From: Gekko japonicus
Lineage: Eukaryota
Direction of reading: 5' to 3'
NCBI RefSeq assembly: GCF_001447785.1
Contig: NW_015165833.1
Location: 196,837-260,836 of the forward strand
Length of the DNA stretch: 64,000 nucleotides
Shown: positions 493 to 45,489 of the stretch, in pieces
How positions within the stretch are numbered: the stretch's first letter is position 1
Layout of the letters: every line of letters begins with the position of its first letter
Notes under the pieces: model-generated
What the model was told of the DNA's origin: nothing
What the model saw: the letters and a program-made list of their open reading frames with translations, nothing else
The model's database searches: none
Program-made: the position numbers and the translations under genes

Positions 493-828
493 TAGGGTTG
501 CCAAGTGCTTACCTGTTCCGGAGTGGGGGAGTCCAGCCTTGCTCTGTGAGTCTTCGCGCGTGCGCCGCAAGCACGTCACACGGAAGTGATGCAAGCACGT
601 CGGGGATGTTGGGGGCGGGGCCACAATCATCTGAGGGAAATCCATAGAGTTTTCCCTCGGATGATTGTGGCTGTGGCCCCGCCCCCAACATCCCCGACGT
701 GCTTGTGTCACTTCCGTGTGATGTGCTTTGGGGGTGGGGTTCCCCCGGGGGGCCCGATCCGGCGACAGCGGGGAACGGGCCTCCTGGGCGGGGATTTCCC
801 CGCCCCCCGGGGGGACTTGGCATCCCTA
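493..828. mobile_element. hAT-type MITE with long internal palindrome
   Basis: TIR TAGGGTTGCC/GGCATCCCTA, perfect 8-bp TSD TGTGCCCA (485-492, 829-836). Confidence 0.88.
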
Positions 829-7000: not shown

Positions 7001-10000
7001 CTCAGAGGTGGAGGCCGAGACGGTCGGTACAGGCATCATGGGCAGAATGGTGAGGGCTGCCAGGCAGTGTGTGTGCGGGGATTGGGGGTGGCAGGGTCTC
7101 AATCCTGGCTACGCAGGATGGCCTTGCTTGCAATGCCGTGCCTAGACCCTGCCTCAAAGCAGGGCATGGAAGATACAGGCATGTGGATGGATTGTGGCGG
7201 GGTGGAAGAAGACCTTCACGTGCATTATGGACCATTTGTCCCTGGACATATTTAATTGCTCCCTATGGTGGCTGGGATCTAGTTGAGTCCTATAGGGGAC
7301 AGGTGTCAATTGCTGTGTGGAAGGCACTCTGGGTCTTCTCTGGCCTCTGCTAGGCCCCTCCGTGCACCCTCCTGCACACTTCAGAGGCACTTGGAAATCC
7401 TGGACTTCTCATTAGAGCTTCAGCTGCATGGCAAAGATTCTCTGATCTGTGTTCATTGCCATTGCAAATGTGGAGCCATTCATGCTGCCAAGGGAGTAAC
7501 CACAAAGGTGTTTTCTGCACATCCTCCCCCCCCCCCCCCCCCGGGAGGGCTTCCCATTTCTCCTGCAGGTTTTCTCAACACATCACTGGAGAGCTTTCTG
7601 AGGGCTTTTTAAAAATATCAGTCATTGCTGTAGTGATCATGCTATGCCAATTACTGTGTGTGTGTTTTAAAAGACCTGTGGGTGGCCCAGGAAAGCCTGA
7701 TCTTGGCAGATCTTGGAAGCTAAGCAGGGGTGGCCATGTTTAGTACTTGAATGGGAGACCACCAAAGAAGTCCAGGGTCACTATGCAGAGGCAGGCAATG
7801 GCAAAGCACCTCTGAATGTCTCTTGCCTTGAACACCCTATGAGGCCATAATAAGTCAGCTGCTACTTGATGGCACTTTCCACCACTGCTGGTGGCATGGT
7901 ATGGAAAATGGCTTAGTGCCACTTTCCCATTAAGGCAACATGCCAATAAGCTTGGACTTCCTTCTTTCAGACAAGATGGTTAGTAAAACCAAGTTTGATA
8001 GAGGGTGCACCAAAGATGGGGAAACCCAGGAAAATGGAGAATTTCAGGACGGTGCTGTGTGGGTACTCCCATAAACAGTACTCCAAGGTAGAAACAAAGT
8101 CAGAGGAAAAATATCCATTTAGAAGCCACCCACGGCTGTATTCCTGCATGGTAGTGTGCAGGGGGAAAGCATTTGTCTGTCTGTCTGTCTCCCCTACCCC
8201 CGATCCTGCTGCCCAGGGCAACAAGGGTGGGGTAGCCATCAGGTTCCAGCTCCACAACACCACTGTCTGCGTGCTCAACACCCACCTGGCAGCCCACCCT
8301 GAGGAGTATGAGCGGCGGAACCAGGAAGTCCAAGACATCTGTGCCCGCATGCAGTTTCACCAGCTGGAGCCTGGCCACCCACTGCTTGCCATTAATGGAC
8401 ATGAGTAGGTTGGCGAAGGTGGGGAGGGGTCTTATTAGATTGCTTGAGGATGCTGTGCTGTTGCTTGCAAGGAGGCAATTGAAAAGTGTGTTTGTGAATG
8501 TGGGAGCAAACAGCCATCCCTTCCTTTTAAATGATGTCTCCAATAACTCTTTCTCCCCTTGCCTCCTCCTACTTACACAAAACCACACTAGTTGTTGCCT
8601 GGGGAGGAAGGTGGCAGGGTCTAGCCTGATCTCATTAGATCTTGGAAGCTAAGCAGCGCCAGTACAAAGGAAGTACGTCTTCACTAGGGATAGGTATGAA
8701 CCAGCTCATGAACAAAAGTTCATGACGAATTTTGGGCAGTTCACGAACTGAAGAGCTGCTATGAACTTCCACGAATTTTAAGGCTCTGAGCCATTTAAAC
8801 CCCTGCTTTCTGCTCTTCAGGGGGAAAAAAAACAGCTGAGCAGCAGGGAGCAGAAAGCAGGGGTTTAAATGGCTCAGAGCAGGGGTTTAAATGGCTCAGA
8901 ATGCCGCCCTACTTTCCCACCTCCATGGCAATCTCCACATGGGCAAAAGCCACTTGGAGAGAAGATATTTTAGCAGTAAAACTACCTGAGGGAAGAGGGT
9001 GATGCCACCCTCTGCTCAAGATTTCAGCCTCCCGCAGCTGCTTTTCACTTTTTAAAAAAGCCAACAAGAGACTGTTGGATTCATCTGCAGAATAAAGCCT
9101 AGTTTGGACCCCAGTTGCATTTCGCACTTACAGCCACAGGCAGGAATGACGGATGAAGGAAGAAGGCTTTAGGGGCTGCATGGGGGGGGGGGGTGTTTCC
9201 CTCCCTGCTTTGCCTCCTCTCTTCCCCAGCAACCTGCTCTAGTGGAGCAGTGTGTTCACCGTCAGCCTGCCAAAGGCATTGCTTGTCTTCAGCGCCTTTC
9301 TTTTTCTCAGTGTTGTCTTGTGGTTGGGAGACCTGAACTACCGGCTGGAGGAGCAGGACACAGAGCAGGTGAAGAAGCTGGTCCAGGCTCGGGACTTCCA
9401 AGTCCTTCATCAGCACGACCAGGTACCCAAGGAGTTTTTCTGGGGCAGGCAGCTGTGCTTTCTTCTTGGGTGCAGGGCAGAGGAGGCTACTTGGGAAGCG
9501 GCTGGAGTGCCATGGCTGCTTCAAGGCTTCTTTGCTTTATTTAACCTGGACCAGAGAACGAGTCTTGCATAGGGGTTACAGCAGCGGTCTTCAGTGTGGG
9601 ACCACTGATGTGCTTCTTGAGTCTCAGGGACAAATTCTAAATGGGCCTGAATGGACCAGAAACAGCCCTGGGATACTCTCAGACCGATGGCTGTCAAACA
9701 ATGAACTGAGCTCACCCCAGACAGGCACACTGACACATAAGAAGAGCCCTGCTGGATCAGACCAGTGGTCCATCTAGTCCAGCATCCCATCTCACACTGT
9801 GGCCAAATAGGTCCTCTGGAGGGCCAATAACAGGGCATAGAGGCTGAGACCTTCCCCTGATGTTGCCTCCAGGTTGGTGTAGTGGTTAAGTGTGCAGACT
9901 CTAATCTGGGAGAACCGGGTTTGATTCCCCAGTCCTCCACTTGCACCTGGCTGGATGACCTTGGGCAAGCCATAGTTCTGTCAGAAGTGTTCTTGAAAAA

Positions 10001-13000
10001 GATCAGTTTCTCTCAAAGTTCTCTCAGCCCCACCTACCTCACAGGGTGTCTGTTGTGGGGAGGAGAAGGGAAAGGAGTTTGTAAGCCGCTCTGAGACTCC
10101 TTTGGGTAGTGAAGGGCGGGGTATAAATCCAATCTCTTCTTCTCCTGGCACTGGGATTCAGAGATATACTGCTTCTGAATGTGGTAGCCACTGACAGACC
10201 TCCATGAATTTGTAAACTTCAGTGAACTACATGCTGCTGCTATTAAATCCTGGAGATTGCAGAATGGGTACAATGATGAAGAATTCAAATTGGAAGGGTA
10301 TGGATGTCTTGGGGAAATGTATTTGCATTCCAGCCTCCCAACTGAGGCTAGTAGAAGGTAAAGTGCATATTCCTCCAGCTGGAGCTGGCTTTAGCCTGCT
10401 GGCCATTCTCCTCCAGAGCAAGAGAAGAGGGCAGGTCAGAGCTCCGTCTGGTATTTCCGGTCCTCATCATTTTGTCCTCTCCTGCTCCTAGCTGAAGATT
10501 CAGATGGATGCCAAGCTGGTCTTTGAAGGCTTCCAGGAGGGAGAGATCTCCTTCCAGCCAACCTACAAATACAACCCTGGCTCTGATGACTGGGACGACA
10601 GGTAGGCCAAGCTGGAGTGTGGCGTAGCATCATGGTTACTTTGCTTTTTGAGTGTTGCCTTCTCCAGTTAAAAGACAAAATGTGAGAACAGCTATAAGAT
10701 GGTCAGAAAGGCATTGAAATCACTGCAGTGTTTTGCACAGGAAAAGAAGACTTAAAGCAAGGGAAGTCCTAACGCAACAGCCAAGTTCTTGCACCCAGCT
10801 GGAATCTTGGTGTTTAAATGCCGCTTTGGAGAGGACGCACCAAGCGAGCTTATGGTGCCCCTGATCGGTTGGGGGTGGAGGGGCAAGGGAAGCTGAGAGA
10901 CAAAAACACAAATGCTGTGTATTGAAAGTGACATTCTTGATGGTGGGAGGCTGGCCTTTCCTGCTAGAGTTTATGGCAGCCTCCTGCTGGTGGAAAGTGC
11001 CCTTGAGTCAAAGCTGACTTATGATGACCCCATAGGGTTTTCAAGGCAAGAGGTGGGTTGCCATTGCCTGCCTCTGCATAGCCACCCTGCATTTCCTTGG
11101 TGGTCTCCCATCCAAGAATTAACCAGGGCCAACCCTGCTTAGCTTCCAAGATCTGATGAAATAGGGCTATAGACTCCCTGGGACAGTTCAAAATCAGGAC
11201 TGGAAATAAAATATGTTATGCTGCAGCAGACAAAATTCACTGCTGGTGGTGAAAAGTGCCATAAAGCCTCAGTTGACTTATGGTGATCCTGCAAGAAGTT
11301 TTCAAGGCAAGAGACAGAGATGGTTTACCATTGCCTGTAGGTGTAGCAACCCTAAGGTTGCCTTGGTGGTCTCCCATCCAAGTAGTAATCAGGGCTGGCC
11401 CTGCTTAGTGCCCCAGCTCTGATGAGATCGGGCTAGCCTGGGCCATCCAGGTCACCAGTAAGAATTTGCACCCAGGTGTAAATCTGCACCTTGCTTGCTT
11501 TTGCCCAGGGAGATGAAATGGGCAAATTCCTCTGCTGTGACTAGCCCAGGGCTAATGTTTGTATCACATATGCATTCAAATTAGGCAAGTTCATGAGTGC
11601 CAACAAAAACCAGCGCAACAGCATTCATAGCCATTTCCATGTGTCCCTAGAATCACTTCTGCCACCATCCATCATGGTGACCTATACTGTTAATATGGCC
11701 TCATTAGCCACCCACAGAAGGCACCAATCAGAATTCAGCTTTGGCCACAACCAGTAAAGTTCTAACAATGGCCACTCATCTCACTAGCTGGCTGTAAGGG
11801 AACAGCCAGCAGTATCTCCCCTGACTGCTGCCATATGCAGGTCAGCAGCTGGCAATTCTACAACTACTAGCCCTGCAAGCCTCCCAGTCAGGAGCTCGAA
11901 TGCCCTAGCAGCAGCCTCCAAACAAACCTTCCTTTTGCCAGGGAAAACTTACAGGGCCACTCAAAACTGACCAGAGATAAGTAATATTCAAGGTTAATTA
12001 CTTGGAATCTACACACAGCTTTATAAATATTTGTCCAAGCCAGGAAAGGCTGAGATAGTTGGAAGTGACCTGGAGGCAGCATCTGATCTTTCCAAGGGAC
12101 TTTCCCAAACAAGCATAACCCACTTTATTTAAGATGGGTAACCATGTAAGTCTGTCTGTAGCAGTAGAAAAGAGCAAGATTCCAGTAGCACCTTAAAGAC
12201 TAACAACATTTGTGGCAGGGGCGGAGCTTTTGTGAGTCACTGCTCACTGTGAGCAGTGACTCACAGTCACAAAATGTCATACCATTCCACAAATTTTGTT
12301 AGTCTTCAAGGTGCTATTGGACTCTTACTCTTTTCTACTTCCACTTCATTTAGCATTTTATCAATAAGTACACAGACTCTGACCTGGATAGCCCAGGCAA
12401 GCCCAATCTCATTGGATCTTGGAAGCTAAGCAGGGCCGACCCTGGTAAGTATTTAGATGGGAGACTGCCAGAAAATACCAGGGCCGGGAGGCAGAGGCAG
12501 GCTATCAAGCCACTTCTCTGAATGTCCTCCATGCCCCAGTAGGAGTCACAGGAGGTCACCACACACACACAAATACCTTTTAAAAACAAAAGTACACAGG
12601 AAGCTGCCTTCTACTGGGTCAAACCATTGGCCTATCTAGGTCAGTCTTGTCTCCTCTGACTGGAAGCGCCTCTCCAGGGTCTCTATTCAAGGTCTTTCAC
12701 ATCACTTGCTACCTCATCCTCTTAACTGGAAATTCCAGGTATTGAACTTGGGACCTTCTGCATGCCTAGGAGATGCTCTCCCGCCCTCCCCTAAGTAGGA
12801 ACATTCTTGTTCTTTTAGCATTGAGCTGTGGGCCGTTGCTACCAATGAGCCATGTGATTAGTCTCCCCTAGTAACAAAAGACACAGTGAAGGGTTCAGTA
12901 CATCTCTGACCTGTGCAGTTTCAAACGCACATGACTGCATGTGCTTTAGTCTCCACCAGAGCTAGTCTGTATCCCTTCTCCTAGTTCTATATCAGGAGGG

Positions 13001-16000
13001 TCTGGAGGAGGGGAGAGCAAGAGGGCCCCCCTGCAATAGTGCAGTGTTACCACCTCGCTGAGAAGCAGACAGGGGGTACCCCAGGCTATGAATGCTTTTC
13101 AGTCTCTCTGCCTTTCCCCCTGTGGACCAGTGATAGGGAAGTGAGGGCTTCCACAGCCCAAAGAGAGGGAGGCTTCTTTTTGTTGGGCTGCAAAATGCCT
13201 GCTTATGGCTGGGAGGGGGCTATATACACTCTCTCCATTTCCCTTGCAGTGAGAAGTGTTGTGTCCCAGCCTGGTGTGACAGGATCCTCTGGAGAGGGAA
13301 GACTGTCTCTCAGCTGGGCTACCGAAGCCACATGGCCCTGAAGAACAGTGACCACAAGCCTGTCAGTGCGGTCTTTGACATTGGGGTAGGCACCCAGTAC
13401 TGGTTCTGGGGTGGGGGTGGGCAGAGTGTGCCCAGGGCTCCCCTGTGCCCAGGACAAGGCCCCTCTTCTTACCCATCCACCCATGTGCCCTCACTTACTG
13501 GTACATTGTTCTCCTGCCCACTGGCAAGATCTCCCACCATCTGCAGGGACAGCTGCCCACAATTGCCTGTGCAACCTTTCCCTGATGGTGCTGGGTGGTG
13601 GGTGGAGTTAGGAGTGGCACTGCTACGGCCAACAGGAATAATGATGTCTTGTGCACCACAGCTCTTGGAAGGCAACATACGCAGCAGCCGGAGGCACAGG
13701 TGGCAAAGCACTCATGAGCAGGCAGTGGAAGGGCGTGTGAGTGCAAGCATCAAAGGAGACACGTAACATTTCAGTAACATTCTTTGCTGCCAGTCACATG
13801 ACCACTGTCTCAGGCAGGGGAGCCAGGCTTCTGTGGGCAGCCTCTTGTGTAACCAGGATACCTTGGAAGAGGACTGCTTTGTATTCCAGTTTGTTTAGTA
13901 TGGCTCTCCTCGGGACAGGTGAGGGTGTTGCTCAGTCTTCTCCACAGCCCAGATGTTGGGTACTTAATTTTACATGGCAGGCTCTGCAGATGTCTTCCCA
14001 GCAGACTACAGGCTCACTGATGAAGCCAAATCTATCTTCCAGGTAAAGGTGGTGGATGAGAAGTGCTATCGCAAAGCTTTCGAGGAAACTGTGCGTTCCT
14101 TGGATAAGATGGAGAACGCCAGCATCCCATCAGTGACTCTGTCCAAAACAGAGGTAGGATGTGCTGCCTTGTCCAACATCACCTTAAAGACTAACAAAAT
14201 TTGTGGTAGGGTATGAGCTTTCGTGAGTCACTGCTCACTTCTTCAGATACAGCTGTATCTGAATACATGAGAAGTGACTCATAAAAGATCATACCTTACC
14301 ACAGATTTTGTTAGTCTTTAAGGTGCTACTGGACTCTTACTCTTTTCTACTGCAACAGGCAGACTAACAAGGCTGCCCATCTTCATCATCCAGCATGATC
14401 CACTCAATGCTGAAGATTCTGACCATATTAAGAACCTGGAGAGAGAATCTCGAAGGGTTCTGCTTAGCCTGTCTAGGACTGCATCTGGGGGGGGGGGGCT
14501 GGTCCATTTCCTTCCATGGAGGAATCTAGGCAAGACTCGTACAGCTCTGAGCCGTACATCAGAGCAGAGCACTGGCAGGCGTAGGGTTACCAACTCCGGG
14601 TTGGAAAATTCATGGAGATTTGGGGGTGGAGCCTGGGGAAGGTGGGGTTTAGAAAAGGGAGGGAACTCAGTGAGGTATATTGAAATAGAGTCTCCAAGCA
14701 GCCACTTTCTCCAGGGGAACTCATATCTATAGCTTGGAGATTAGTTATAATTCCAGGAGATCTCCAGGCCTCACCTGCAGATTGGCAACCATAGGCAGGA
14801 GGCTTTGGAACAGGCATTTGGTCTTTTGGGTTGTTTGCGACCTCCCTGCTTGGGAGGCCAATGGCTGAGCAAGAGGACAAAGCGAGAGCCACCAAGAGCT
14901 CTGGCCAAAGTAGGGTTGCCAGCTCTGGGTTTGGAAATATGTGGAGATTTGGGGTGGAACCTTGGGGAGAGTAGTGTACTGCCCCTAGCAGATTCTAGTA
15001 AGACAGTCAGAAATAGATCAATAAATAGTTCCGTAAAGCCTTTGCATGCTTGGAGATGTAGTTTAGGTACCTTTGTAAGTCACGTATTTCTACGCTAGGT
15101 CGCTAAGTAGGGTTTGGGGGGGGGGGGGTTCCTCAGCAAGGAATACTGCCATAGAGTCCACCCTCCAAAGCAGCCACGTTCTCCAGGGGAAGTGATCTTG
15201 TTTGTTTGGAGATCAATTGTAATAGTGGGAGATCTCCAAGTGCCACCTGGAGGTTGGCAACCCTAGGGCAAACGGAAGAGCAGACTGTGACCATTCTTGC
15301 TGTGTATTATCCCCCTCCACCCTTCAGTTCCTTTTCAAGGATGTGAAGTACCTACAGCTTCAGGTGGAGTCTTTCACCATCTGCAATGGCCCAGTCCCCT
15401 GCCAGTTTGAGTTTATTAACAAGCCCAATGAAGACAGCTATTGCAAGCCATGGATGACTGCAAAACCAAGAGAGGGCTTCCTGTTGCCAGGTGACTTGGC
15501 TACCATGTGTGTATGTCTAAGTGCCTATGTCTGCATGCACAATGCTTCAATTTGTGACCTGTGGAGTTGTGGGCTGTCAATAGGATGGGGATGCAGCAGC
15601 CCCTGCACATGGGAAGATCATCCCTTTCCCTCTGCATTCATTATTCATCCTCTCACTTTCTATTATTTCAAGGGGGCAGTGTTGTATACTGGGTTCGTTG
15701 CAGGAAACACTCAGTGATTCAGCATAGTGATCAGCTCAGTTTATTAGCACACGTACACACAACAACAACAACAACTAGCCTGCGAGGTCCTGTATTTATG
15801 GGTCCCCAACGCATTCCTAGTCCGCTCCCCTCTTCCTACTGGTGGGTTTGAATTTCCCTCCAGGGATCCTATTGGTGTTCCTAGGATCCTTGGTCCCTTT
15901 GTTATTCAGGACCAAGCTTGGACTAAGGTGCTGGCTTCCTAGTGACTCTCTGCGGACACAACACCCCTCCCCCCATAGTTCAAATTGTGCCAATGGCACA

Positions 16001-19000
16001 AAGTCCTTTGAGTAGGCCGGGGGGCAGCGCTCCCTAATGGAACACCTGGGTAACGTAATTGGGGTTCCTGGTGCTTCTGGGGGTGAGCCGTCCCTTTGGC
16101 TCTGAAGGGGGGGGGGAATCCACTCCGGCCTCAGGAGCGGCGGGTGAAGATGCTTCCTGGGTCTCTGGGAACGGAGGTCGTGAGGGCTCGCTGGCCCTCA
16201 CCTCGGGGATGTCATCGTCCAGCTCCTCTGCACTCAGCTCGTCGGGCCCCCCAGACGGTTCTGTCTCCGGGGATACAGGGAGCTGGTGCCTTCGCGGCTG
16301 ATCCACATGCTTTCGCAGGTCCTTGCCGTCCTCTGTGGAGACCTCGTATGAGACTTGCCCAGTGGGACGAATGACCCGGCCTGCCAGCCCAGGGGGTCCC
16401 TTTCCGAAGTTCCTTAGGTAGACAGGGTCTTCCAGAAAGAACCCCCGGGGAGCTTCCACTTGTTTGGAGAGCCTCCATGACTCGGGGGCTCTATCTGGGT
16501 GCAGCCTGTCCAGTAGCACGGTTGGCCTCCGTCCCATCAGTAGCTCGGCTGGGCTGCCGCCGCTTACTGAATTGGGAGTGGTGTGTTGAGACAGCAGGAA
16601 CTGGGCCATGCGGAACTCCCAGTCACCCTCCGTGATACAGCTGAGTACCTCTTTAGCAGTCCTCACCATGAACTCTGCCTGTCCATTTGTGGCTGGGTGG
16701 GTGCTGACCTCACGTGCCGGATAAGGTTTCCCCGGAGGAACGCCTGGAACTTGTCCAACGTAAAGGCCGTTCCGTTGTCGGAGACGATGGTTTCCGGCAA
16801 CCCATGGGTTGTGAAGATCCGGCGCAGCGCGCGCATGGTAGCCTTGGAGGACGTTGTAGCGACGGGAGTTACCTCTGGGCGAGGTCCAACTTCCCGAAGA
16901 CCTTGGCTCCCGTCAAGGTAGCTAACACATGGCTCACGACTGGGATGGCATGATACTGTAGGGTACATTCAGGGTACATTTGTAGTCCGCACAGATGCGG
17001 ACGTCACCGTTGGGCTTCACCAGTGTGACTATCGGGGTCTCCCACGCAACGTGGAGAGACTGGTTCCAGGATCCCTTGAGCTACTAGGCAGCCCAGCTCG
17101 GTGTCAATCTTAGGTTTCAGAGTGAAGGGAACCCGCCGGGCTCGCATGTGGATGGGTGCTAACCTGGGGTCGAGCTGCAGGGAGACCGGGGGACCAGTGT
17201 AGCGCCCCATCGATCCATCGAAAATGGATGGAAATTCCTCGCAGACCTTGCTAAAGTCCAATCGGTCGCATTGCTTCACCCCCTCGATGGTTATTCCAAG
17301 GGGGGAGAACCAGGCAAATATTGTGGAGCTTGGACTCATTTGTTCCTGTTAGACCTTTAATTAATTAATTAAATTACTTCATTTATACTCCACTTTTCTC
17401 CCCAATTGGGACTCAGAGTGGTTTACAACATTATCCTCATCACCATTTTATCCTCACAGCAACCCTGTGAGGTAGGTTAGGCTGAGCATGTGCGACTGGT
17501 GCAAGGTTACCCAGCAAGCTTTCATGGCAGGGTAGGACTTCAAACTTGAGGGTTCCATCCCTGACCTGGATACCAGGACACAGAGGCAGGTAATCAAGCC
17601 ACCTCTCTGAAAAACGTCCTAGCCCCACTATGAGTCACCAGAAGCCACTATGACTTCCAGACTCGCAAGCGTGCACACGGACACACACACACACACACAA
17701 AGTATTCACACAAAAAAGCAACCACTAGGCCATGCTGAATTTCTGAGGCCTTTGATACCATTGGTCTTAACAAGTGGGTGTCTTTTTCAGTGGGATCTGG
17801 GAAGAGTTGGGGGGGGCATGTTCTTGGGATTGCTTCCATTTGTTTCTTTCGGAAGGTCACAGAAAGTTATTGGTTGTCTTCCCTGTGGAGTTTTATGGAA
17901 TTCCATCTTGCATCTCACACTTTTCAAAGCAAACATGAGAACGAATGCCATCCCCCCCCCGGTGGTTGTGTTAGTAAGCATTTGTTTAGTATAAAGAATT
18001 AAATTTTGTACTTTATTTTAAATAATTTAAATAGTTATAAAAAGAAATATTATAAATGGTGAGTCAACAAAATAACTGTTCAAAAGGCGATTCTACAATA
18101 ATTTAAATGACAAGAGCTACCCAAGCAAAACTGGAAAATCAACCAAATTGTAAAAATCTCTGTTCTTCCTACAAACTCTGAATGGAATAATCTGCATCTT
18201 TCTTTTCCCTGAAGATTCCAAGGTGGTGATCGAGTTGGAACTATTTGTGAATAAATCAACAGCAACAGCCTTGAACTCTGGAGAGGACAAGCTGGAGGAC
18301 ATCTTGGTGCTCCACCTGGATAGGGGGAAGGATTATTTCCTGTCTGTATCAGGGAACTACTTGCCCAGCTGTTTTGGGTGCCCCATCCAAACACTCTGCT
18401 ACATGAAGGAGCCCATCCGTGAGATGTTGCCAGAGGCCATCAGGGAGCTGGTGGGTTCCTCCTGTTGAGTAGTTGATTGTGTGCCACCCTGGATGTGGCA
18501 CTGGCAGCACCTTTTTTTGGGGGGGGGGTTGCACATGATGAGGAGCATCCATCCATCTAGAATGTTGTGTTGCATGGAGTTATGCCCATTTAAAGCAGTG
18601 CTCCCTTTTAGACCTTGATGCCGTTGTTGACAGACGATGCTTTTTGGGACGAGAAGCCCTTGGACATCCCCAAGGAGTTGTGGATGTTGGTGGACCACCT
18701 CTACCGCAATGCTTGCCAACAGGTTAGGATGCCTCTGGGTCTGGATTTTAGCGTTCCTTTTTCAACAGAGCTAGTATTGGCTGCCCTGACCTGGATAACC
18801 CAGGTCAGTCTGATCTCTATCAGATCTCGGTAGCTAAGCAGGGTTGGCTCTGGTTAGTGCTTGGATGGGAGATCACCAAGGAGGACTAGGAGTGGTACAC
18901 AGAGGCAGGTAAACTGCCTCTGTTCTTCTCTTGCCTTGAAAACCCTAGTCAGTTTCCACCACAAGTAGTTAGCTGCAGTAGCTAGGATCAGGATGCTTTG

Positions 19001-22000
19001 GGCAGTGCCGGAGGATGCCTCCGTGGTGTCATGTGATTATGTACCATGCCAAGGTTCCGATCTTATTCTGGTGTTATCAACCCTTTTGCTTGCTCTGTGC
19101 CCGGGATCCTCCTGTGCCAGGCAGCCCAGACGATTTGAAATGTTATGCAGAGGGGTCTATGCCAAGGGGGATCCGAGTGTGAGCACAGGATATATTGTTT
19201 GACCCAGGGATGGAGAAGTGAGACAAGCTGTTTTTCTTCTCATCCCTCCCCATGATGTAGCTGCTTATATATCCTTTCTTGCAGGAAGACTTGTTTCAAC
19301 AGCCAGGCTTGAGGCCAGAGTTTGAACAGATCTGTGACTGGTTGGACACAGGGACCCTGGATGTGCTCGGTATCCTTTGATGAGTCTCTTTGAAAGGTCT
19401 CTCCTGCTTTTCTAGTGTCAAGTACTTTTTAATTGTTTGTATACTTTTAATATACTGTAAATTGCCTGGATGTCTCACTGCAGCAAAGGTGTATATAATT
19501 TTGTAAAATACCTCTATTTATTTGTTTATGTGCTATCAAGTTGTTTCCGACTTCTGGCAGCCCTATGAATTAATGACTTCCAAAATATCACATCATTAAC
19601 AGTCTTGCAAACCTGAGGCCATGGCTTCCTTTATTGGGTCAATCCATCTCACACTGGGTCTTTCTCTTTTCCTACTGACCAACTTTCCCCAGCATTACTG
19701 TCTCTTCCAGTGAGTCTTCTCATGAAGAGCCCAAAGTACGGTAGCCTCAATTCAGTCATTTTAGCTTCTAGGGAGAATTCAGGCTTGATTTGATATAGAA
19801 CCCTCTTATTTGTCTTTTTGGAAGTCTGTGGTATCCATAAAATTCTCCTCCAACACCAAATACACAAATGTTATATGGGTTTCAAAGCAAAGACATGGGG
19901 AGATCTAGAGCTCTCTGGCCTTTCTATTCAGTCCTTGGGCTCTTTTTGTAGCAGGAACTCCTTTGCATATTAGGTGACACACCCCTAGCTAATCCTCCAA
20001 GAGCTTACAGTAGCCCCTGTAAGAAGATGTCTGTAAGATCTTGGAGGATTGGCTACATTAGGGGTGTGTCGCCTAATATGCAAAGGAGTTCCTGCTACAA
20101 AAAGAGCCCTCCAGCCATCTCTGAGCATAATGTAATGTTGTCCCCAGAAGTCTGTTAACAACTTAAAATATAGAAAAGTACATTTTCTAGAAATTTTGTA
20201 GGCAAAACTGGAAATTCAGGGGAAATTTAAATATGCAATACTGTTCTAAGAAAACATCTTAGAAATCCTTACTGCACTGATCAAGATAAAGAAGTGAGCA
20301 GTGATTCACAAAAGCTCATACCCTGCCACAAATTTTGTTAGTCTTTGAGGTGCTACTGGACTCTTGCTCTTTACTCCTTACTGTATTGAGTTTAAGAATA
20401 TTAAATACATCACTCATAATTTTGTAAGCATATAAAATTACCCTAGTTATGCTGCAGCTATGTTCAAACAAAAGTCTAAATATACCTAATGCTAGAGAAA
20501 GCTCAGGGAGGGAAGGCAGTATGGTTATAGCCCAATCTCATCAGATCTTCGAAGCTAAACAGAGTCAGTACTTGGGAGACCACCAAGGAGGGTTGTGCAG
20601 AGAAAGGCCATGGCAAACTACATCTGCTTCTCATCTGTCTTGAAAGTCCCTTGTTGGAGTCGCCATAAGTCAGTTGTGACTTGGTGGTACATACATATAG
20701 ATGTAGAGAGAACTTGGTGAACTGAAGGTCTTGCCATGTGGGAACTAGGGAAAAGATAAATATTGAAGCTAGAAGCCATAAATATGGTAGTAAACAAAAG
20801 ATAAAACAATCACATGGAGGTGGATTCACCCTTCCTCCAACCCGGCTCTTCCTCTAGTGGAAGAGTCATTTCAGAGGAAGGCTTCAAACTTGAGCCAAAA
20901 GAGTCCATTTTCTCCAGGGGGACCTGATCTCTGTAGTCTGGAAATGAGCTGTAATTCCAGGGGATCCCCAGGTCCCACCTGAAGGTTGGCATCCCTGCTT
21001 TAGAGAGCTGTTGCCAATTGGAGTAGAGAATACTGGCCTTGGTGGACTCGAGGGTCTGATTCAGTGTAAGGCAGCCTCATGTGATCACTTGGTGTGATGC
21101 CCTTCCCTGGACCCTTCCGCCTTGCACTACAAGCGGGTGTTCACGATAGGAGTGATTAGCATTAGTTACAGTTGGAGCGGGGAGTCCCATCTTGGTGGTT
21201 GTTTCTTTAACCCACCCTTCCCAGGGCCAGTGGGCAGCAACCACTCTGTGGCTGAAGCGCTGCTGCTCTTCTTAGAGAGTCTTCCTGAGCCAGTTGTCTG
21301 CTACAAGCTGTACAGAAGCAGCCTGGAATGTGCCAACAGCTACAAGATGAGCAGTCAAGTAAGGCAGGTGCTGGGAGAGGGGCAGGGCTGAGCGGCAAGA
21401 CATACCACTTGCCTGCATGTGAAAACCGGTGTGCAACACTAAAGTGCTCCCAATCTCCTGCAGGTTATTTCTGTGCTGCCCAAGTGCCATCAAAATGTAT
21501 TCCGTTACCTGGTAGCTTTTCTGCGGGAGCTGCTGAAACACTCTGGGAAGAATCATTTGGATGTGAATATTCTTGGTAAGGAGAACTGAATGAGGGACGA
21601 AGCCACCCCTTTTGGTACATGGTCCTTACCAGGGTTGTGGGGGAGAGGGAAGGGACAGGAAGAACTCAGTTACATATCTCCCATCCCTTTCTTCGGAGCT
21701 CAGGGTGGTGTCCATGATCCTCTCAATTTTATTCACACTGTGGGGTAGGTTAGGCTGCTGTCCAGCGTTGTCTCCCGTCTCCGACTTAGACCCTCTCCCA
21801 CCGGGCAAACCATGAATGACCCAGTGCCCTGAAGGCCCTTACTCAGAGGGGGGCAGCAGAGAACAGGAACAGTGGCTAGTTTGGCGGCTCACGCAGTGAC
21901 AGGCCCCAATCAGGTAGTAGCCCCCACCACTGAAAGAGAGGAGATTGGAGAGTTGTACAGCCCAGCAGCAGCCTTATACCTGGTGAAGGCCAGCAGCTGG

Positions 22001-24130: not shown

Positions 24131-24360
24131 CACGGAGAGCATCTCTCTTGCTACTTGTTTCCCTATGGCTCCTCTGCCCCACACTTTCACTGAGTGGCAC
24201 ATTGAGCCACAGACTTCAGACCAAGAACTAAATGCCACACAGCTTGAAAGAAGGGCAGAAGAAGTGACATAACATGGCTTGCCATTACAGCCTTTCAGAG
24301 CCAGAGGTTCCATTGCTCCAAAATGCCACCCCTCCCCCCACATGACAGTACAGATTGATC

Positions 24361-24540
24361 AAGATGGGTAGCCGTGTTTGTCTGTAGCAGTAGAAAAAAG
24401 GAAGAGCCCAGTAGCACCTTAAAGACTAACGAAATTTGTGACAGGGTATGAGCTTTTGTGAGTCACTGCTCACTTCTTCAGATACAGTTCATACACATAT
24501 TTTGTTAGTCTTTAAGGTGTTACTGGACTCTTTTTCTACT
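24361..24540. mobile_element. Fold-back Penelope-derived element
   Basis: Same family as 14179; minus-strand hammerhead 24446-24485 with GAAA>AAAA. Confidence 0.72.
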
Positions 24541-26077: not shown

Positions 26078-43712
<17,635 letters not shown>

Positions 43713-45188: not shown

Positions 45189-45489
45189 GGAGTGCTTTCA
45201 CACACTGTAAATAATGCACTTTCAATCCACTTTACGTGCACTTTGCAACTAGTTTTCACAATGTGAAATTGCAAAATCTACTTGCCAACAGTTGCTAAAG
45301 TGCATTGAAAATTGAAAGTGCCCTCTAGGGTGCTTTCACACATGCTGAAAAATGCACTTTCACTTGACTTTTCATGCACTTTAGCGATAATTTGCAAGTG
45401 GGTTTTGCTGTTTCACACAGTGAAATCCAGTTGCAAAGTGCTTTGAAAGTGGATCGAATGTGCATTATTCAGCATGTGTGAAAGTGCCC
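45189..45489. mobile_element. Inverted pair of MITEs in the MTF1 3'UTR
   Basis: ~30-bp TIR GGGTGCTTTCACACATGCTGAA.../...TTCAGCATGTGTGAAAGTGCCC (45328-45489); 45189-45323 is a reverse-oriented copy. Confidence 0.8.

What the first reader, a model, noticed from the sequence alone, without database searches (positions are those of the whole stretch)
14179..14383. Fold-back element with an intact antisense hammerhead ribozyme and a selectively wrecked sense-strand twin in an INPP5B intron
Seen: the minus-strand arm (14211-14250) reads GUAU-CUGAAGA-A-GUGAG/CUCAC-GAA-AGCU-C^AUAC, a complete minimal hammerhead. The plus-strand twin (14255-14294), which lies in INPP5B pre-mRNA, differs at 7 of 40 positions including core G8, G12 and the helix III palindrome, while the adjacent ~31 nt of the arms differ at only 2. 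The other sense-strand copies in INPP5B (~12250 and ~20290) also lack the CUGA box. The hairpin starts ~26 nt after an exon donor. Known: Penelope-like elements carry minimal hammerheads with palindromic helix III that can act as dimers. Inference: selection disables self-cleaving copies on the transcribed strand; three copies is only suggestive.
Basis: partly seen in the sequence, partly recalled or inferred. Interest (0 to 1): 0.7.

Follow-up and report, generated by a model that had tools for sequence, protein, structure and literature searches.

The report
Decaying Penelope fold-back with hammerhead motif
This hairpin in an INPP5B intron is an old two-armed scrap of a very common Penelope-type jumping gene; one arm still spells a minimal self-cutting RNA motif that is predicted to be folded shut, and the worn arm is likely ordinary decay rather than selection to protect the host gene.

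Summary
The sequence facts hold. The minus arm is a complete minimal hammerhead, and the plus twin differs at 7 of 40 positions. The element is the 3' end of a Neptune-type Penelope-like retrotransposon plus its inverted truncated copy, a published insertion pattern. The genome holds 344 exact 35-nt cores and an estimated 40,000 arms.

Selective wrecking is not supported. 7/40 vs 2/31 gives p=0.28. In 1.56 Mb of introns of known direction, non-CpG core substitutions were 14/212 sense vs 17/240 antisense, and G12 loss 9/26 vs 8/26. Paired fold-backs carry fewer private changes in the sense arm (80 vs 104). Intact sense copies exist: at 42305 in this window, and a mirror case (L190) with a worn antisense twin. 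The hairpin is predicted to lock both arms.

One hint remains. Loci with an untruncated hammerhead on one strand only are 6 sense vs 20 antisense (post hoc p=0.009), but ribozyme-free control repeats also skew, up to about twofold. Cleavage and RNA were not tested. The scan has reported similar fold-backs in other genomes with the same verdict.

The parts
14043..14153 (+). INPP5B-like coding exon upstream of the element; donor GT at 14154-14155
   Evidence: translation and PDB match to the OCRL/INPP5B linker; gene identity from neighbouring exons
14172..14179 (.). possible target-site duplication, left copy (7 of 8 nt match 14389-14396); suggestive only
   Evidence: sister copies diverge from the window at 14180 (loose ends)
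14180..14252 (-). inverted arm of the Penelope-like 3' end (73 nt), no private change against the family majority sequence
14211..14250 (-). complete minimal hammerhead motif; predicted cut between 14215 and 14214; cleavage untested
   Evidence: features as in PMC4209133
14253..14388 (+). sense arm with the full 3' tail of the element; 16 of about 130 positions differ from the family majority
14255..14294 (+). decayed hammerhead twin: G8, G10.1, C11.1, G12, extra A, loop II and palindrome changed; CUGA itself intact
14389..14396 (.). possible target-site duplication, right copy
12131..12344 (.). sister fold-back in INPP5B; both arms truncated before the CUGA box
20289..20378 (+). solo 5'-truncated sister copy, G12 lost at the CpG
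24356..24540 (.). sister fold-back between INPP5B and the next gene; whole minus arm with G12 lost at the CpG, plus arm truncated
42229..42358 (.). fold-back of a second hammerhead family in the last intron of a + strand zinc-finger gene (MTF1 by recall); sense arm core intact at 42305, antisense arm has a G-U wobble at C11.1

Best explanation
The element is the 3' end (pseudo-LTR) of a Penelope-like retrotransposon inserted together with an inverted truncated copy of itself, and it is likely inert and decaying neutrally. Shown: the same hammerhead and tail follow a GIY-YIG reading frame in longer copies, half of the intact copies examined have an inverted partner, and sense and antisense arms decay alike. 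Inferred: both arms arose in one insertion (they share a subfamily variant, and a possible 8-nt target duplication flanks them), before three related species split. Predicted: in the INPP5B pre-mRNA the two arms pair into a long hairpin, so neither arm could fold as a hammerhead even when new; the motif also needs a same-strand partner or the element's protein to cut.
For: Copy number: 344 exact cores, 168 forward and 176 reverse, control 0; about 40,000 arms by extrapolation from 25 in 1.56 Mb. Parent: GIY-YIG Pfam hit over cut-off about 120 nt upstream of the hammerhead in L034; turtle homologues with RT plus GIY-YIG at 59-64% identity. Fold-back is common: 35 of 71 exact-core loci have an inverted partner, core-intact in 6 of 35; described for PLEs in PMC8557442 (passages). 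No strand effect on decay. Core-intact arms 6 sense vs 8 antisense of 127; fold-backs with only the sense core intact 4, only antisense 2, of 28. Mirror case L190. P(>=7 of 40) = 0.07 under family rates, and 4 of 17 arms reach it (gaps counted), 3 of them antisense. Exact cores are 1.4% of estimated arms against 3.1% expected, so no excess conservation. Folding: -121.6 kcal/mol hairpin; stem I and II pairing 0.5-0.65 alone, 0.0 in the fold-back. Monomer inactive in vitro (PMC4209133); the anole PLE hammerhead does not cut without protein (PMC11167929).
Against: 0 vs 9 private changes between the two arms (p=0.004-0.016). Only 1 of 15 near-complete partners of exact arms differed at 7 or more positions. 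Whole hammerheads are fewer on the sense strand, 15 vs 30 arms and 6 vs 20 single-strand loci, while truncated arms are 35 vs 32. T/A skew around 68 exact cores leans antisense (-0.0099 +/- 0.0056, p=0.08). Genome-wide, the dead CpA variant outnumbers the wobble TpG variant 403 to 347 (p=0.045). The target duplication has one mismatch. No RT was seen in this genome's own copies.
Confidence: 0.85

Rival explanations
1. Insertion-level filtering: new copies that place a whole, active hammerhead on the transcribed strand are partly removed before fixation; survivors then decay neutrally. This can hold alongside the best explanation but would not explain the seven changes here.
For: Single-strand whole-hammerhead loci 6 sense vs 20 antisense, p=0.009; fold-backs with one whole arm 0 sense vs 5 antisense of 28; truncated arms 35 vs 32. 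Skew around intact cores p=0.08. Hammerhead retrozymes are depleted from Xenopus introns (bioRxiv 10.64898/2026.07.22.740005, passages).
Against: The measure was chosen after seeing the data. Of 10 control repeats, 3 skew at p<0.05, in both directions (5S-SINE 22:43, another 79:52, another 23:10). In the focal family alone the count is 6 vs 9. Host direction at exact-core loci was 4 sense and 4 antisense (3 by tool, 5 by recalled protein identity). The longer end pieces reach further into the element, so splice, polyA or promoter signals could give the same bias.
Confidence: 0.2
2. One reading: after insertion, selection favours mutations that break the catalytic core of sense-strand copies.
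For: 0 vs 9 private changes at this locus; CpA 403 vs TpG 347; G5 mutants 77 vs loop-G mutants 66 in the same trinucleotide, not significant, p=0.40.
Against: Equal core decay by strand; sense arms less decayed in pairs, hammerhead part 28 vs 41; intact sense copies at 42305 and L190; hairpin sequestration; changes after the first core hit are neutral (inference).
Confidence: 0.05
3. The hairpin itself, 26 nt from the splice donor, disturbs INPP5B splicing or draws RNA editing, and selection or hairpin-driven mutation loosened it.
For: Long predicted duplex next to the donor; the 4-nt replacement at 14264-14267 creates a short local inverted repeat, as template switching would (seen sequence; inference).
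Against: Loosening would be served by changes on either arm, yet all 9 sit on one; the hairpin is still -121.6 kcal/mol; the insertion persists in two other species. No RNA data were obtained.
Confidence: 0.07
4. The minus arm is younger than the plus arm (a later insertion beside an older copy, or gene conversion from a sister copy).
For: 0 vs 9 private changes; PLEs tend to insert beside existing copies (PMC6765202, passages).
Against: Both arms share the same subfamily variant in the tail; head-to-head junctions at this position are common; the left arm is present at the orthologous site in two other organisms.
Confidence: 0.1

Closest known systems
Minimal hammerheads (min-HHR) in pLTRs of metazoan Penelope-like elements (Cervera and De la Pena 2014, PMC4209133; parts 1-2 of 4 of the text read)
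   Same: [quoted passage not shown]
   Different: Stem II is 5 bp, shorter than the 7-8 bp of the schistosome examples; no activity test exists here for this family
Endonuclease-bearing PLE insertion unit with inverted 5'-truncated copy and tail, Neptune clade (Craig et al. 2021, PMC8557442; passages)
   Same: Inverted copy adjacent to the 3' end piece; parent frame with a CX4CXXC motif just upstream of GIY-YIG (L034)
   Different: Here both arms are tiny (73 and 136 nt) with no coding part; clade assigned by motif only, without an RT tree
PAc Poseidon element of the green anole (Frangieh et al. 2024, PMC11167929; parts 1-2 of 4 read)
   Same: Reptile PLE whose hammerhead lies in the pLTR with a downstream tail
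   Different: Other clade (Poseidon); there cleavage was measured, needed the element's protein and was dispensable for insertion in vitro
Non-LTR retrozymes of animals (bioRxiv 10.64898/2026.07.22.740005; passages)
   Same: Non-autonomous pLTR-derived hammerhead repeats; two tandem same-strand arrays were seen here (L231, L232)
   Different: The finding is a head-to-head pair on opposite strands, not a tandem array; that paper reports intron depletion and its main text has no occurrence of 'antisense'

Membership tests
Minimal hammerhead ribozyme of metazoan PLEs | Core CUGANGA, GAAA and NUH in register with stems I and II | tested here: met
   minus arm
Minimal hammerhead ribozyme of metazoan PLEs | Extra nucleotide between 9 and 10.1, G10.1-C11.1 pair, palindromic 15.2-16.2 | tested here: met
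   against PMC4209133
Minimal hammerhead ribozyme of metazoan PLEs | Match to a curated Rfam hammerhead model | tested here: not met
   no hammerhead family among 25 matches at E<=1; the minimal form lacks helix III, so a miss is expected (inference)
Minimal hammerhead ribozyme of metazoan PLEs | Self-cleavage as a dimer | not testable with these tools
   no assay; cofolding two arms favoured a stem II swap and does not test catalysis
Minimal hammerhead ribozyme of metazoan PLEs | Can fold in its genomic context | tested here: not met
   predicted stem pairing 0.0 inside the fold-back; equilibrium model only
EN+ Penelope-like element | C-terminal GIY-YIG endonuclease upstream of the hammerhead in longer copies | tested here: met
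   L034 Pfam PF01541 28.2 bits, cut-off 22.6; homologous frame ends before the exact core in L015 and L017
EN+ Penelope-like element | Reverse transcriptase in the same frame | tested here: inconclusive
   not seen in this genome's fetched copies; homologues at 59-64% identity carry PF00078 with PF01541
EN+ Penelope-like element | 5' truncation with adjacent inverted copy | tested here: met
   35 of 71 exact-core loci; 28 of 77 intronic loci are two-strand pairs
Neptune clade | CX2-5CxxC motif between RT and GIY-YIG | tested here: met
   CX4CXXC read in the L034 frame; motif defined in PMC8557442, where Nematis and Naiad share it
Neptune clade | Placement in an RT phylogeny | not tested
   no RT sequence from this genome
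Non-LTR retrozyme | Tandem same-strand monomers bounded by hammerheads | tested here: not met
   arms are head-to-head at this locus; tandem arrays exist elsewhere (L231, L232)

The most novel reading that the evidence does not exclude
Complete Penelope hammerheads are active enough in host pre-mRNA that new sense-oriented insertions are purged two- to threefold from introns, while ribozyme-less pieces are not. Tens of thousands of copies would then give a genome-wide, in vivo readout that minimal hammerheads cut, which in vitro work has struggled to show.
Probability: 0.2. Interest if true: 0.6.

Novelty: new member of a known kind. Interest (0 to 1): 0.17.

Why it matters
As it stands the locus is one of tens of thousands of decayed Penelope ends and matters little. 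The useful residue is a testable question: whether minimal PLE hammerheads, nearly inactive in vitro, cut in cells. A ribozyme-specific strand bias in introns would answer that from sequence alone.

Tried and rejected
Rfam scan: no hammerhead model matched; the miRNA hits are generic hairpin matches below cut-off.

Titin-dominated I-set search gave few long introns.

Host-gene direction at exact-core loci: of 876 candidate exons from my own finder, 434 were kept and 300 scanned with Pfam; 1 gave a convincing hit. Four PDB look-ups for exons I recognised by recall found nothing, so five of the eight direction calls rest on recall.

The 70-aa endonuclease tail alone had no Pfam match; the Atlas could not read the sequence.

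15 of 127 profile hits belonged to an unrelated composite repeat and were dropped before the counts. In one search the focal-family set kept 25 of 51 assigned arms (duplicates, arms under 86% identity or score 78 dropped); the table with the diverged arms gave the same core rates (15/223 vs 21/303).

Luense et al. (PMC5785218) was not held and is known only through a review passage.

A microRNA or a functional antisense ribozyme was considered and rejected: no excess conservation and no evidence of antisense transcription.

Literature searches for a strand test of PLE hammerheads in introns listed none; subscription papers and preprint supplements were not visible, so absence from print is not shown.

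Full report
Observation. The arms meet head-to-head at 14252/14253 and are 85% complementary over 82 nt. The minus arm holds a complete minimal hammerhead at 14250-14211, with the predicted cut between 14215 and 14214. The plus twin differs at 7 of 40 positions and at 2 more in the next 31. The host is INPP5B-like on the + strand, and the element starts at 14180, 26 nt after the donor. The three further differences at 14176-14179 fall in a possible 8-nt target duplication, 14172-14179 and 14389-14396, with one mismatch.

What it is. The exact 35-nt core occurs 344 times in the genome, evenly on both strands, against 0 for the control. Extrapolating 25 arms in 1.56 Mb gives about 40,000 arms. 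Longer copies run upstream into a decayed reading frame (L015, L017). In L034 a 242-aa frame carries a CX4CXXC motif and a GIY-YIG domain over Pfam's cut-off, about 120 nt before the hammerhead. Of 409 candidates, 38 longer proteins matched it, nearly all from turtles, several with RT and GIY-YIG at 59-64% identity. This is the layout of Neptune-type Penelope-like elements (PMC8557442, passages), which also describes the adjacent inverted truncated copy. Of 71 exact-core loci, 35 have an inverted partner, core-intact in 6. Contigs of two other coded organisms run from the unique flank into the element at about 5-6% difference, so the insertion predates those splits. The hammerhead features match the min-HHR of PMC4209133 (parts 1-2 of 4 read).

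Test of selective wrecking. I took 159 stretches of 10 kb, chosen without regard to the element, inside 19 genes whose direction came from Pfam exon hits (fetched). They hold 1.56 Mb, and T exceeds A on the assigned sense strand in 19 of 20 blocks. BLAST found 45 sense and 51 antisense arms. For the two best-defined families (64 arms), non-CpG core substitutions were 14/212 sense and 17/240 antisense, G12 loss 9/26 and 8/26, and flanks 134/1778 and 148/1613. A profile search gave core-intact arms 6 sense and 8 antisense of 127. In 24 pairings of opposite arms, private changes were 80 sense and 104 antisense, 28 and 41 within the hammerhead (one locus paired twice, one pairing had no shared columns). 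Under family rates 7 or more changes in 40 has probability 0.07, and 4 of 17 arms reach it with gaps counted, 3 of them antisense. Genome-wide, single mutants at catalytic G5 number 77 and at a loop G in the same trinucleotide 66 (p=0.40).

Counter-examples. At 42229-42358, in the last intron of the next + strand gene (zinc-finger exons by Pfam; MTF1 by recall), a sister fold-back has an intact core on its sense arm. L190 is the mirror image of the finding: a complete sense hammerhead about 900 nt after a laminin-G exon donor, with a worn antisense twin; I fetched it because two lists crossed there, and left it out of the counts. At ~12250 both arms lack the CUGA box, and the minus arm at 24356-24487 has lost G12.

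How it likely works. Inferred: one target-primed insertion left the 3' end piece and an inverted copy. Predicted: in the pre-mRNA the inverted arm is made first and pairs with the sense arm in a hairpin of -121.6 kcal/mol; hammerhead stems that form at 0.5-0.65 in the isolated arm fall to 0.0 in the fold-back. From papers: a single min-HHR showed no cleavage (PMC4209133), and the anole PLE hammerhead cut only with the element's protein, with no RNA reads ending at the site (PMC11167929, parts 1-2 of 4). Selection for inactivation would also stop after the first core hit. The seven changes read as two at the CpG, one local replacement at 14264-14267 and two C-to-A changes, one in a loop.

Results against this reading. 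The arms differ 0 to 9 in private changes (p=0.004, or 0.016 as events), though the locus was chosen for its intact arm; only 1 of 15 near-complete partners of exact arms differed at 7 or more. Untruncated hammerheads are fewer on the sense strand: 15 vs 30 arms, 6 vs 20 single-strand loci (p=0.009), while truncated arms are 35 vs 32. T/A skew around 68 exact cores leans antisense (p=0.08). The dead CpA variant outnumbers the wobble TpG variant 403 to 347 (p=0.045). These measures were chosen after seeing data. Three of 10 control repeats skew at p<0.05 in either direction, and direct host-direction calls at exact cores were 4 to 4 (L003, L190 sense and L024 antisense by tool; five by recalled protein identity). 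Strong purging is therefore unlikely, and a two- to threefold insertion filter stays open at about 0.2.

Comparison and novelty. It works like, and by every sequence feature tested is, a PLE end with a minimal hammerhead; catalysis and an RT of its own were not shown. It is not a retrozyme array. A 2026 preprint reports retrozyme depletion from Xenopus introns without a strand analysis in its main text (passages; its supplements were closed). Four literature searches listed no strand test for PLE hammerheads. Earlier notes of this scan reached the same ordinary reading in other genomes; I saw them after my tests and count them as no evidence. Verdict: a new member of a known kind, interest 0.17.

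Noticed in passing
window 42229-42358: Fold-back of a second hammerhead family with an intact sense core in the last intron of the zinc-finger gene; the family tail carries an AATAAA hexamer in the sense direction.
   Followed up: partly
L231:2447-2600 and L232:2449-2700: Tandem same-strand hammerheads 113 and 92 nt apart (two and three copies), the arrangement that could form active dimers; retrozyme-like.
   Followed up: no
L047:9590 and L062 (sense strand): A third hammerhead family with an ATG at the start of stem II, as described for the anole Poseidon element; intact cores on the sense strand of long introns; 3 sense and 4 antisense copies in the sample.
   Followed up: partly
L055 and 14 other intron loci: A composite repeat that has captured about 50 nt of the second family's tail without the ribozyme; 11 sense vs 4 antisense by profile, 23 vs 10 by BLAST.
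   Followed up: no
L005, L021, L027 junctions: The inverted arm joins the forward arm at short microhomologies inside the hammerhead (stem I or stem II), suggesting template switches at the ribozyme's own stems.
   Followed up: no
window 16034-16970, minus strand: A 292-aa frame that looks like a Gypsy-type integrase remnant inside an INPP5B intron (by recall); no Pfam match.
   Followed up: partly
window 7679-7799, 11049-11168, 12383-12505, 18793-18913 and others: Abundant 5S rRNA-derived SINE; 22 sense vs 43 antisense in the intron sample.
   Followed up: partly
window 569-728, 8782-8881, 45195-45484: Other long hairpins (small inverted-repeat elements) unrelated to the Penelope family.
   Followed up: no
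window 36169-36240, minus strand: tRNA-like head of a SINE, 54.5 bits to the Rfam tRNA model.
   Followed up: no
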